Below, piece by piece: positions 5,699-8,096 of a stretch of DNA of 18,141 nt. The translations under genes and the position numbers were made by a program. Below the pieces are notes generated by a model. It was not told the origin of the DNA. It was given only the letters and a program-made list of their open reading frames with translations, and did no database searches. How positions within the stretch are numbered: position 1 is the first letter of the stretch; each line of letters opens with the position of its first letter. Source of the stretch: a virus; UHGV virus genome UHGV-0189264. The stretch is one strand, 5' to 3'.

Positions 5699-5834
5699 AA
5701 AGAAGATTTCCAATAATCAGAACAAGTCGGCTCCTGTTTAGTTACGAGCGACATTGCTCCGTGTATTCACTCATTGGAATGAATACACAGTGCAGTGTTT
5801 ATTCTGTTGTTTATGCCAAAAATAAAGGCTACCA

Positions 5835-6035
5835 TCAGGCAGCCTTGTTATTCTGTTTACCAAGTTCTCTGGCAATCATTGCCGTCGTTCGTATTGCCCA
5901 TTTATCGACATATTTCCCATCTTCCATTACAGGAAACATTTCTTCAGGCTTAACCATGCATTCCGATTGCAGCTTGCATCCATTGCATCGTTTGAATTGT
6001 CCACACCATTGATTCTTATCAATAGTCGTAGTCAT
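5835..6035 (-). CDS. ral: Ral restriction-alleviation protein
   Basis: 66 aa MTTTIDKNQWCGQFKRCNGCKLQSECMVKPEEMFPVMEDGKYVDKWAIRTTAMIARELGKQNNKAA, recognised as lambda Ral; RBS AGGA upstream. Confidence 0.8.
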   Translation of the reverse strand: MTTTIDKNQWCGQFKRCNGCKLQSECMVKPEEMFPVMEDGKYVDKWAIRTTAMIARELGKQNNKAA

Positions 6036-6105
6036 ACGGATAGTCCTGGTATTGTTCCATCACATCCTGCGGATGCTCTTCGAACTCTTCAAATTCTTCT
6101 TCCAT
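6019..6105 (-). CDS. Highly acidic micro-ORF (28 aa, MEEEFEEFEEHPQDVMEQYQDYPYDYDY)
   Basis: Not in the ORF track. RBS GAGGTGA about 6 nt upstream of the ATG at 6105; sits between N and ral and overlaps the ral start by 17 nt. Confidence 0.3.
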   Translation of the reverse strand: MEEEFEEFEEHPQDVMEQYQDYPYDYDY

Positions 6106-6113
6106 ATATCACC

Positions 6114-6440
6114 TCAAATAAGTGGTTTGCTGCCTAATTTCATTTTCTGGCGACCAACACAAGTCACCCCCATTTCACTGCGTGGCTTGCTGTACCATGT
6201 GCGCTGATTCTTGCGCTCAATACGTTGCAGGTTGCTTTCAATCTGTTCGTGGTATTCAGCCAGCACCGTAAGGTCTATCGGATTCAGTGCGCTTTCTACT
6301 CGTGATTTCGGTTTGCGATTCAGCGAGAGAATAGGGCGGTTAACTGGTTTTGCGCTTACCCCAACCAACAGGGGATTTGCTGCTTTCCATTGAGCCTGTT
6401 TCTCTGCGCGACGTTCGCGGCGGCGTGTTTGTGCATCCAT
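6114..6440 (-). CDS. N: Antiterminator N (lambda type)
   Basis: Internal Met of ORF 6114..6530 gives MDAQTRRRERRAEKQAQWKAANPLLVGVSAKPVNRPILSLNRKPKSRVESALNPIDLTVLAEYH..., the lambda N arginine-rich motif and body. RBS AGGAGAA upstream; nutL immediately upstream. Confidence 0.9.
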   Translation of the reverse strand: MDAQTRRRERRAEKQAQWKAANPLLVGVSAKPVNRPILSLNRKPKSRVESALNPIDLTVLAEYHEQIESNLQRIERKNQRTWYSKPRSEMGVTCVGRQKMKLGSKPLI

Positions 6441-6550: not shown

Positions 6551-6581
6551 GCCCTTCTTCAGGGCTTAATTTTTAAGAGCG
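6551..6581 (-). promoter_or_regulatory. nutL (boxA plus boxB) for N antitermination
   Basis: Minus-strand reading is CGCTCTTAAAAATTAAGCCCTGAAGAAGGGC: boxA CGCTCTTA followed by the boxB stem-loop GCCCTGAAGAAGGGC. Confidence 0.85.

Positions 6582-6743: not shown

Positions 6744-8096
<1,353 letters not shown>

What the first reader, a model, noticed from the sequence alone, without database searches (positions are those of the whole stretch)
6019..6105. Extremely acidic 28-codon micro-ORF between N and ral, where lambda carries sieB
Seen in sequence: an unannotated minus-strand ORF with a plausible RBS (GAGGTGA) encodes MEEEFEEFEEHPQDVMEQYQDYPYDYDY, in which about two thirds of residues are Asp, Glu or Tyr. 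It overlaps the ral start by 17 nt. Established knowledge: Ral modulates host type I restriction-modification, and highly acidic small proteins can act as DNA mimics. Inference: this could be an anti-restriction or anti-defence peptide co-expressed with N and ral. It could equally be a chance ORF in a short spacer.
Basis: partly seen in the sequence, partly recalled or inferred. Interest (0 to 1): 0.5.

Follow-up and report, generated by a model that had tools for sequence, protein, structure and literature searches.

The report
Lambda orf28, a conserved acidic micro-protein
The 28-codon acidic ORF is real, but it is phage lambda's long-catalogued gene orf28; comparison with relatives shows the peptide itself is under selection, it usually sits with restriction-alleviation genes, and its function is still untested.

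Summary
The ORF at 6019-6105 (minus strand) is exactly as described: 28 codons, a GAGGTGAT Shine-Dalgarno sequence and a 17-nt overlap with ral. It is not new. The peptide is 100% identical to lambda orf28 (lambdap47, NP_040623.1), which has the same length and the same overlap with ral, and it fits PHROG 16060 end to end. Lambda carries both sieB and orf28; this window only lacks sieB.

It is not a chance ORF. In relatives collected through Ral, 24 of 32 changes fall on codon position 3 and dN/dS is about 0.1-0.2. No other frame on either strand looks coding, all indels are whole codons, and a Shine-Dalgarno sequence persists where the flanks are unrelated. No conserved RNA structure explains this.

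75 of 78 assessable divergent ral genes carry the peptide gene. It also survives under purifying selection where ral is deleted. In one such lineage it overlaps the stop codon of an unrelated Lar-family restriction-alleviation gene.

The invariant residues are the non-acidic ones (F8, H11, P12, M16, Y19, Q20, Y22). That suggests a specific peptide ligand rather than a generic DNA mimic. An anti-restriction role is plausible but rests only on gene neighbourhood. Verdict: already known gene, function open.

The parts
6019..6105 (-). orf28 coding sequence (28 codons plus TGA); peptide MEEEFEEFEEHPQDVMEQYQDYPYDYDY
   Evidence: Identical to lambda NP_040623.1. Fits phrog_16060 over positions 1-28 of 28, E 7e-19. 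Purifying selection in this frame only.
6108..6115 (-). Shine-Dalgarno sequence GAGGTGAT of orf28; it overlaps the N stop codon (6114-6116)
   Evidence: A Shine-Dalgarno-like element is kept in 29 distinct upstream contexts. Mean duplex energy with the anti-SD is -7.5 kcal/mol, against -2.3 for random 20-mers from the window.
6114..6440 (-). N antiterminator gene (108 aa). It ends 8 nt before the orf28 ATG.
   Evidence: Pfam N36, E 1.5e-26; phrog_271.
5835..6035 (-). ral (66 aa). Its ATG lies inside orf28 codons 24-25, and the two genes share 17 nt.
   Evidence: Pfam PF11058 Ral, E 1.6e-48; phrog_1055.
6044..6047 (-). AGGA, the putative ral Shine-Dalgarno sequence. It sits in orf28 codons Q20-D21, 8 nt before the ral ATG.
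   Evidence: Read from the sequence. It is a confound for conservation of the 3' part of orf28.
5815..5846 (-). Terminator-like hairpin (AAGGCTGCC...GGTAGCCTT followed by a T run) spanning the ral stop codon. Its 5' arm is the sequence that directly follows the peptide gene in ral-less relatives.
   Evidence: junctions seen.
6551..6565 (-). nutL boxB hairpin GCCCTGAAGAAGGGC upstream of N. It marks the pL transcript that carries N, orf28 and ral.
   Evidence: Identification as lambda boxB is from established knowledge of lambda nutL.

Best explanation
This is lambda gene orf28. It is a genuine, translated small-protein gene of the early leftward (pL) operon. In the window it is chained between N and ral: the N stop lies inside the orf28 Shine-Dalgarno sequence, and the ral ATG lies 17 nt before the orf28 stop.

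**Shown here:** the frame, a start codon with a Shine-Dalgarno sequence, and the peptide sequence are maintained by purifying selection across lambdoid and P22-like phages of Escherichia, Shigella, Salmonella, Providencia and Kluyvera. This holds even where ral has been deleted.

**Inferred:** the product is a roughly 3.6-kDa peptide of charge -12, probably disordered when free. It probably acts in trans by docking a conserved motif, F-[DE]-[DE]-H-P-x-D-x-M-x-x-Y-Q-[DE]-Y, onto a basic surface of a specific partner. The interchangeable acidic residues would provide electrostatic steering.

**Most likely pathway (inferred from gene neighbourhood only):** alleviation of type I restriction. The peptide could be a helper of Ral- or Lar-type proteins, or an independent inhibitor. 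The overlap with ral probably also couples the two translations so that both products are made together.

**My probabilities:** real coding gene about 0.95; trans-acting peptide about 0.75; restriction-related function about 0.35-0.4. The confidence given below is for the whole chain.
For: **Identity**
- 100% identical to lambda orf28, with the same 87-nt length and the same 17-nt overlap with ral.
- The exact peptide is AAA96576.1 / Q38269_LAMBD and was seen on 182 contigs.
- It fits phrog_16060 end to end.

**Coding selection**
- In the Ral-anchored set, changes in codons 2-22 fall 4/4/24 on codon positions 1/2/3 (P = 1.7e-6).
- Nei-Gojobori dN/dS is 0.09-0.22 for lambda-type, P22, BTP1, ST64T, Providencia and Kluyvera pairs where it could be computed.
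- The other two sense frames and all three antisense frames either have pS below pN or contain 3-5 stops.
- All indels are whole codons.
- A Shine-Dalgarno sequence is kept in 29 different upstream contexts.

**Not an RNA element**
- No Rfam match.
- The alignment consensus fold is only -2 kcal/mol.

**Independence from ral**
- In ral-less group A, outside the codons fixed by my search pattern, synonymous:non-synonymous counts are 7:1, 7:2 and 5:1 (per-pair P from 8.5e-6 to 3e-4).
- ral-less group B and ECP1 also keep the ORF.

**Link to restriction alleviation**
- 75 of 80 loci anchored on divergent Ral carry the ORF; two of the other five have no upstream DNA.
- In 9 of 9 group A loci the peptide's GTG overlaps the stop of a Lar-family gene (PF14354 at 30.4 bits, cutoff 28.6; phrog_599 at 6e-11).
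- In ECP1 the next gene belongs to phrog_14587, annotated 'anti-restriction protein'.

**Motif**
- The invariant residues are non-acidic, while E and D interchange.

**Literature**
- ral expressed without its native upstream region had 'little to no effect' on recombineering with unmethylated DNA (PMC9410887). This leaves room for a missing partner but does not show one.
Against: - **No experimental evidence.** I could obtain no direct evidence of translation or function. The lambda ribosome-profiling paper is not in the library.
- **Dispensable in the laboratory.** orf28 is non-essential by CRISPRi (PMC10695390).
- **No two-hybrid partner.** Neither orf28 nor ral gave any intraviral interaction (PMC3224144 supplement). 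This is a weak negative for a direct Orf28-Ral contact.
- **Group B stands alone.** These loci keep the peptide with neither Ral nor Lar nearby.
- **The Lar link is a single lineage.** All nine contigs are related, so it counts as one evolutionary event.
- **Neighbourhood is weak evidence here.** The slot just after N is a general hot spot for accessory genes, with at least six different upstream neighbours.
- **Ral-anchored sampling cannot detect ral-less copies.** That inflates the apparent linkage.
- **A few copies are decayed.** Two loci have a 45-nt deletion and one has a nonsense codon.
- **Classical genetics assigns restriction alleviation to ral.** This is from my own knowledge of Zabeau 1980 and Loenen & Murray 1986, as cited in PMC12707154.
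Confidence: 0.4

Rival explanations
1. A trans-acting host-takeover peptide whose target has nothing to do with restriction. Its neighbours in the pL operon hit FtsH (cIII), FtsZ (Kil) and RecBCD (Gam), so the target could be another host DNA- or RNA-binding protein, a protease, or another defence system. On this view the linkage to ral is only shared operon position and shared inheritance.
For: - The peptide is under purifying selection without ral.
- Group B has no Ral or Lar nearby.
- The slot after N holds many unrelated accessory genes.
- No two-hybrid link to Ral was found.
Against: - 75 of 78 assessable ral genes keep the physical overlap.
- Where ral is lost in group A, the peptide overlaps a second, unrelated restriction-alleviation gene.
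- In ECP1 it precedes a third family annotated as anti-restriction.
Confidence: 0.3
2. A purely cis-acting leader ORF. Only the act of translating it matters, because that opens or delivers ribosomes to the ral start site 17 nt before its stop. The peptide itself would be irrelevant.
For: - The ral ATG and its AGGA lie inside orf28.
- In the single-sequence fold, the orf28 start region pairs with the ral start region.
- In L175 and L183 a deletion removed the N-terminal half but left a short ORF with a GAGG still reading into ral.
Against: - dN/dS is 0.1-0.2 in codons 2-22, far from the ral start.
- An invariant non-acidic motif is conserved.
- The ORF persists under selection where ral is deleted.
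- The stem joining the two start regions is not conserved.

Coupling may still be a secondary role.
Confidence: 0.08
3. A regulatory leader peptide of the MgtL type. The acidic N-terminus MEEEFEEFEEHP would provoke intrinsic ribosome destabilization or EttA-sensitive pausing. How many ribosomes reach the ral start would then depend on Mg2+ or on the energy state of the cell.
For: - Residues 2-7 are 5/6 D/E/P. This is the window used by Chadani et al., in which only ten E. coli ORFs qualified and seven of eight tested aborted translation (bioRxiv 10.1101/2021.02.02.429294).
- EttA rescues ribosomes paused on acidic patterns within the first 30 residues (PMC11282234).
- The whole ORF is 28 residues long.
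- A gene overlaps its 3' end.
Against: - The best-conserved residues are in the middle and C-terminal half and are not acidic. This model does not explain that.
- The N-terminal acidic run tolerates 2-3 codon deletions.
- Conserved bulky F or I at positions 5 and 8 should counteract destabilization, according to the same paper.
- ral-less copies are still maintained.
Confidence: 0.08
4. A miniature DNA mimic of the Ocr/ArdA kind. A polyanion would occupy the DNA-binding groove of restriction enzymes non-specifically.
For: - Net charge -12 over 28 residues; the most acidic ORF in the window.
- It neighbours ral.
Against: - It is 28 residues long, whereas to my knowledge the known mimics are folded proteins of roughly 110-170 residues.
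- No similarity to any Pfam, NCBIfam or PDB entry.
- The acidic positions interchange and tolerate deletions, while F, H, P, M, Y and Q are invariant. A charge-pattern mimic predicts the opposite.
Confidence: 0.05
5. A chance ORF in a spacer, with no function.
For: - Short ORFs are abundant: 66 of at least 20 aa in 3.5 kb.
- Several annotation pipelines skip it.
Against: - Frame-specific purifying selection.
- Conserved start codon and Shine-Dalgarno sequence.
- Only whole-codon indels.
- Conserved from Escherichia to Providencia and Kluyvera.
Confidence: 0.01

Closest known systems
Bacteriophage lambda orf28 (lambdap47, NP_040623.1, AAA96576.1; PHROG 16060)
   Same: - Identical 28-residue peptide.
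- Same 87-nt length.
- Same 17-nt overlap with ral.
- Same operon.
   Different: In lambda the sieB cassette separates N from orf28. In this window, as in HK544, N abuts orf28 directly. There is one synonymous difference (CCG versus CCT at Pro12).
T4 Stp, a phage-encoded peptide inhibitor of the type Ic restriction enzyme EcoprrI
   Same: It is a very small phage peptide that acts on a type I restriction-modification enzyme (PMC1484252). This shows that a peptide of this size can be a real anti-restriction effector.
   Different: - No homology was tested or is claimed.
- To my knowledge Stp is not acidic.
- Orf28 has no demonstrated target.
Ocr (T7) and ArdA DNA-mimic anti-restriction proteins
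   Same: - Strongly negative charge.
- Early expression.
- Directed against type I restriction (PMC9410887).
   Different: - Those are folded proteins several times larger.
- Orf28 has 28 residues and no detectable sequence or structure relative.
- Its conservation pattern points to a specific motif, not a charge array.
Ral (PF11058) and Lar (PF14354) restriction-alleviation proteins
   Same: These are the physically overlapping neighbours of the peptide gene. Ral overlaps its 3' end in most phages, and a Lar-like gene overlaps its 5' end in group A.
   Different: Orf28 belongs to neither family; it has no Pfam hit. UniProt Q38269 and GenBank J02459 label it 'Ral', which is a naming error.
MgtL-type N-terminal DE/P leader peptides (intrinsic ribosome destabilization)
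   Same: - Short ORF.
- DE/P-rich right after Met (5 of 6 residues).
- A gene follows it.
   Different: - The peptide sequence beyond the acidic run is under selection.
- Bulky residues are interspersed in the acidic run.
- No test of translation abortion was possible.

Membership tests
Lambda Orf28 / PHROG 16060 | Sequence identity to lambda NP_040623.1 | tested here: met
   28 of 28 residues identical. The exact sequence is found as AAA96576.1.
Lambda Orf28 / PHROG 16060 | Full-length match to the family profile | tested here: met
   phrog_16060, E 7.1e-19, residues 1-28 on profile positions 1-28 of 28.
Lambda Orf28 / PHROG 16060 | Synteny: in the pL operon downstream of N, with its stop 17 nt inside ral | tested here: met
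DNA-mimic anti-restriction proteins (Ocr, ArdA) | High density of surface negative charge | tested here: met
   12 D/E in 28 residues, no K or R.
DNA-mimic anti-restriction proteins (Ocr, ArdA) | A folded domain large enough to imitate a stretch of B-DNA, or sequence or fold similarity to a known mimic | tested here: not met
   28 residues. No Pfam, NCBIfam or PDB match, even with a family profile. No structure prediction was possible because the peptide is below the 30-aa limit.
DNA-mimic anti-restriction proteins (Ocr, ArdA) | Binds and inhibits a type I restriction-modification enzyme | not testable with these tools
   Needs biochemistry or genetics.
Ral family (PF11058) | Match to the Ral profile | tested here: not met
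   The peptide has no Pfam hit, while the neighbouring gene scores 162.5 bits. The 'Ral' label on Q38269_LAMBD is a misnomer.
Cis-acting translational-coupling leader ORF | Its stop codon lies at or just after the start of the downstream gene | tested here: met
   The ral ATG lies 17 nt before the orf28 stop.
Cis-acting translational-coupling leader ORF | The peptide sequence is itself free to vary (only translation matters) | tested here: not met
   dN/dS is 0.1-0.2, the motif is invariant, and the ORF is maintained without ral.
MgtL-type intrinsic ribosome destabilization leader | D/E/P enrichment in the six residues after the initiator Met | tested here: met
   EEEFEE is 5 of 6. The criterion comes from bioRxiv 10.1101/2021.02.02.429294, which gives no numerical threshold.
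MgtL-type intrinsic ribosome destabilization leader | DE/P-dependent premature abortion of translation (Pth-sensitive peptidyl-tRNA, enhanced at low Mg2+) | not testable with these tools
   Needs in vitro translation or reporter assays.
T4 Stp-like anti-restriction peptides | Phage-encoded peptide of about 30 residues or fewer | tested here: met
   28 residues.
T4 Stp-like anti-restriction peptides | Sequence relationship to Stp, or inhibition of a type I enzyme | not tested
   No Stp sequence was compared, and the activity cannot be tested here.

The most novel reading that the evidence does not exclude
Orf28 is the unrecognised second component of lambda-type restriction alleviation. On this reading, a 28-residue acidic peptide docks through its F-x-x-H-P...M-x-x-Y-Q-x-Y motif onto the type IA enzyme (for example the HsdM N-terminal domain that determines Ral sensitivity) or onto the small Cys-rich Ral and Lar proteins. 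Either way it is needed for, or strongly boosts, the switch to de novo methylation. This would explain why phages keep it physically overlapped with two unrelated restriction-alleviation genes, and why ral cloned alone performs poorly.
Probability: 0.2. Interest if true: 0.65.

Novelty: already known. Interest (0 to 1): 0.3.

Why it matters
The ORF itself is ordinary: lambda's orf28 has been in the databases since the genome was sequenced. Two things may be useful.

- **Annotation.** Comparative evidence shows clearly that this micro-gene encodes a selected peptide. Yet PGAP and many phage records omit it, and UniProt mislabels it 'Ral'. It could be annotated systematically.
- **A testable lead.** How Ral and Lar reprogram type IA restriction enzymes is still not understood mechanistically. 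A conserved peptide overlapped with both gene families is a cheap candidate partner to test. If it proved to be a cofactor or an independent inhibitor, it would be one of the smallest anti-restriction effectors known. It would also finally assign a function to one of the last unassigned early genes of lambda.

Tried and rejected
- **Protein-level searches with the peptide.** Structure prediction, the representative-protein search and the encoding-contig look-up all need at least 30 residues, so no model or complex prediction was possible.
- **Family and structure libraries.** Pfam, NCBIfam and the PDB gave no hit, either for single sequences or for a 21-member profile.
- **RNA explanations.** There is no Rfam hit at E up to 1 over the ORF. 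The window's own fold is only modestly stable (z = -2.2). Its stem pairing the two start regions is not conserved: the consensus fold of 21 sequences is -2 kcal/mol. Rejected.
- **Antisense gene.** A 56-aa plus-strand ORF (5967-6137) spans the micro-ORF. Its frame shows pS far below pN, so it is not coding. Rejected.
- **Longer database variants.** The 50-60 aa members are upstream read-throughs, where the TGA inside the Shine-Dalgarno sequence is mutated. They are not domain fusions.
- **Lar-anchored search.** It returned only the nine contigs already known, so it gave no independent replication of the Lar link. The group A arrangement has no counterpart among GenBank phage records.
- **Literature.** The lambda ribosome-profiling paper (Liu et al. 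2013, PNAS) could not be retrieved by PubMed or PMC id. No held paper contains the peptide sequence. Apart from strain lists, a CRISPRi table and an ORFeome table, I found nothing functional on orf28.
- **sieB flanked by a clean direct repeat.** This is only partly true. The leader next to orf28 resembles the 3' end of an N gene, but lambda's own N 3' end is different.

Full report
**1. The observation**

The minus-strand ORF at 6019-6105 is exactly as described.
- Its ATG is at 6105-6103 and its TGA at 6021-6019. The product is MEEEFEEFEEHPQDVMEQYQDYPYDYDY.
- Its Shine-Dalgarno sequence GAGGTGAT (6115-6108) is an 8-nt perfect complement to the 16S rRNA 3' end. It overlaps the stop codon of N (6116-6114).
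- Eight bases separate the N stop from the ATG.
- The last 17 nt of the ORF (6019-6035) are the first 17 nt of ral (5835-6035).
- The peptide has 12 acidic residues, 5 Tyr, 2 Phe and no Lys or Arg. It is the most acidic of the 261 ORFs of at least 25 aa in the window (43% D+E; the next has 21%).

Existence alone means little, because the surrounding 3.5 kb hold 66 ORFs of at least 20 aa.

**2. It is lambda orf28**

- A nucleotide search of annotated phage records hits lambda. NC_001416 annotates 'orf28' (lambdap47, NP_040623.1) at complement 34271-34357, overlapping ral (34087-34287) by 17 nt.
- Its translation is identical to the window's peptide. The DNA differs by one synonymous base in the ORF.
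- PHROGs holds a 28-position family, phrog_16060 (unknown function), that the peptide matches end to end at E = 7e-19.
- The exact sequence is AAA96576.1 / UniProt Q38269_LAMBD, seen on 182 contigs.
- Lambda has sieB between N and orf28. The window, like HK544, lacks sieB, so N abuts orf28.
- Annotation is inconsistent. SfI, ECP1 and UAB_Phi20 call the ORF. HK544, P22 and PGAP on an E. coli genome that is 100% identical over 5980-6140 do not.
- The block occurs in about 880-1580 of 5426 complete E. coli genomes.

**3. Is it a real coding gene?**

I collected relatives in two ways. One set was anchored on Ral, and so is unbiased with respect to the micro-ORF. The other used a degenerate DNA pattern for the divergent motif EHPDDDM.

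The first collection, before the divergent-Ral scan, held 33 distinct nucleotide versions and 22 peptide variants from 134 loci. These include Providencia (MEEDIEEFDEHPDDDMRQYQDYPYEYDY) and Kluyvera (a GTG-initiated 23-mer), where Ral is only 72% and 61% identical to the window's.

In the Ral-anchored set:
- The minimum number of changes in codons 2-22, which lie outside the ral overlap, is 4, 4 and 24 at codon positions 1, 2 and 3 (P = 1.7e-6).
- Nei-Gojobori dN/dS is 0.09-0.22 where it could be computed.
- The other two sense frames and the two open antisense frames give pS far below pN. The antisense frame that shares third positions has 3-5 stops. This also disposes of the 56-aa plus-strand ORF at 5967-6137.
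- All indels are whole codons.
- Upstream homology breaks off about 25 nt before the ATG. Even so, 29 different upstream contexts all keep a Shine-Dalgarno-like element. The mean duplex energy with the anti-SD is -7.5 kcal/mol, against -2.3 for random 20-mers from the window.

RNA-level explanations fail. There is no Rfam match, and 21 diverse sequences have essentially no consensus structure (-2 kcal/mol).

A chance ORF is excluded.

**4. Relationship to ral**

- Of 80 viral loci anchored on divergent Ral, 75 have the peptide gene ending over the ral start, and two have no upstream DNA in the locus.
- L175 and L183 carry a 45-nt deletion between AGG repeats that removes the Shine-Dalgarno sequence and codons 1-13. 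L220 has a nonsense codon at position 4.
- So linkage is near-universal, with the occasional decay expected for a dispensable prophage gene.
- The putative ral Shine-Dalgarno sequence (AGGA, 6047-6044) lies in orf28 codons 20-21. Some 3' conservation could therefore serve ral.

That confound is removed by the ral-less members.
- **Group A** (nine contigs; MGEDEFEEHPDDDMSQYQDYPFDYDY). The stop is followed directly by GGCTGCC, the 5' arm of the hairpin that spans the ral stop in the window (5846-5825). The ral ATG is gone.
- **Group B** (four contigs; MEEDFDEFDEHPDDDMSRYQDYED). It ends in the same way.
- Within group A, after excluding every codon constrained by my search patterns, synonymous:non-synonymous counts are 7:1, 7:2 and 5:1 (per-pair P from 8.5e-6 to 3e-4; the pairs are not independent).

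The peptide is therefore selected for itself and is not merely a ral leader.

**5. Neighbourhood**

- The upstream neighbour is highly variable. I found several N types, sieB on the other strand, an Sf6 gp36-like gene and an ECP1 gp59-like gene.
- In all nine group A loci, the peptide's GTG overlaps the stop of a 91-aa gene in the Lar restriction-alleviation family. This gene scores 30.4 bits on PF14354 (gathering cutoff 28.6) and E = 6e-11 on phrog_599. Lar is unrelated to Ral in sequence.
- A Lar-anchored scan returned only the same nine contigs, so this is one lineage and one evolutionary event.
- In ECP1 ral is internally deleted, orf28 is intact, and the next gene is in phrog_14587, annotated 'anti-restriction protein'.
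- Group B has no such neighbour.

**6. What the peptide looks like**

Across 21 variants the invariant positions are M1, E7, F8, H11, P12, D14, M16, Y19, Q20 and Y22. Acidic positions swap E and D freely, and the N-terminal acidic run tolerates deletions of 2-3 codons. This pattern fits a short linear binding motif embedded in a polyanion. It does not fit a charge-array DNA mimic. Nothing in Pfam, NCBIfam or the PDB resembles it.

**7. Literature**

- orf28 is listed as a non-essential hypothetical protein in a genome-wide CRISPRi study (PMC10695390).
- It was deleted together with ral in recombination strains (PMC2327257).
- It was included in the lambda ORFeome, but neither it nor ral entered the two-hybrid network (PMC3224144 supplement).
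- Ral is thought to accelerate first-strand methylation by type IA enzymes, and sensitivity to Ral maps to the HsdM N-terminal domain (PMC12707154).
- ral cloned alone upstream of gam had 'little to no effect' on recombineering with unmethylated DNA, unlike Ocr and ArdA (PMC9410887).
- A tiny phage peptide acting on a type I enzyme has a precedent in T4 Stp (PMC1484252).
- N-terminal DE/P-rich nascent chains destabilize ribosomes, and bulky residues counteract this (bioRxiv 10.1101/2021.02.02.429294). EttA rescues ribosomes paused on acidic patterns in the first 30 residues (PMC11282234). Orf28 residues 2-7 are 5/6 D/E/P.
- I could not obtain the lambda ribosome-profiling paper.

**8. Explanation and rivals**

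- **Best supported:** a genuine early small-protein gene whose product acts in trans through a specific motif. The overlap with ral also provides co-translation. The pathway is most likely restriction alleviation, but this rests on neighbourhood only (overall confidence 0.4).
- **Main rival (0.3):** the same kind of peptide with an unrelated host target.
- **Minor rivals:** a coupling-only leader (0.08), an MgtL-like regulatory leader (0.08), a generic DNA mimic (0.05) and a chance ORF (0.01).

**9. Verdict**

- The feature is already known as lambda orf28.

The added value is the demonstration of peptide-level selection, the ral-independent persistence and the Lar link. Together these make a cheap, specific experiment worthwhile. 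Interest 0.3.

Noticed in passing
L012-L027, L030, L032, L033, L035: Many 'genomes' of unrelated bacteria hold Ral loci 100% identical to the window's. Examples are Pseudoxanthomonas, Nocardioides, Shewanella, Paenibacillus and Chromatium. They sit on low-coverage contigs, several of about 48.4-48.5 kb, which is the size of the lambda genome. This looks like lambda DNA contaminating the assemblies.
   Followed up: no
H23, MW057783.1: The record 'Campylobacter phage CJLB-4' (48,361 bp) matches this lambda block as well as lambda itself does, and it carries the sieB, N and ral annotations. It is probably lambda mislabelled or a contaminant.
   Followed up: no
J02459.1 / UniProt Q38269_LAMBD: The original lambda record and its UniProt entry name the orf28 product 'Ral (restriction alleviation;66)'. 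The record therefore shows two 'ral' features. This is a naming error, since the peptide has no Ral-family match.
   Followed up: partly
L001 1797-1852 and L004 1442-1497 versus window 6095-6150: In lambda and P22, the roughly 25 nt between sieB and the orf28 start (CGCAATCCAC-TATTTRAGRTGA) resemble the N 3' end that abuts orf28 in the window (GCAAACCACTTATTTGAGGTGA). This suggests that N-orf28-ral is the ancestral layout. sieB, and other cassettes such as the Sf6 gp36-like and ECP1 gp59-like genes, would have been inserted later at this junction.
   Followed up: partly
L175 and L183, about 1440-1470: Two P22-like contigs share a 45-nt deletion between AGG repeats. It removes the orf28 Shine-Dalgarno sequence and codons 1-13, and it places a GAGG just before the internal Met16. 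A 13-residue remnant (MNKYQDYPYDYDY) may therefore still be translated into the ral start. These are natural alleles that could separate the N-terminal acidic half from the coupling function.
   Followed up: no
L034 about 1630-1660: The Kluyvera ral homologue appears frameshifted: WAIRPRQ* where WAIRTTAMIARE is expected. The upstream micro-ORF is intact. This could be a pseudogene or a sequencing error.
   Followed up: no
L010 (ECP1) 1201-1376: ECP1 has an internal deletion that leaves only the first 25 nt or so and the last 66 nt of ral. orf28 is intact and annotated (gp58). The next gene downstream (gp57) is in phrog_14587, annotated 'anti-restriction protein'.
   Followed up: partly
P0002-P0004, P0011: In some E. 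coli strains the in-frame TGA inside the orf28 Shine-Dalgarno sequence is mutated (to W or L). Gene callers then fuse an upstream ECP1 gp59-side reading frame to orf28, giving 50-60 aa 'hypothetical proteins'.
   Followed up: partly
window 6744-7220, minus strand: An ORF just downstream of the cI-like repressor gene (7145-7777) is in the position where lambda has rexAB. It contains a signal-peptide-like stretch ([20 protein letters not shown]...). It may be a secreted or lipoprotein moron expressed from the prophage.
   Followed up: no
window 5815-5846, minus strand: The terminator-like hairpin that contains the ral stop codon is also the right-hand junction in both ral-less lineages. ral thus seems to be gained or lost as a precise cassette between the orf28 stop and this hairpin.
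   Followed up: partly
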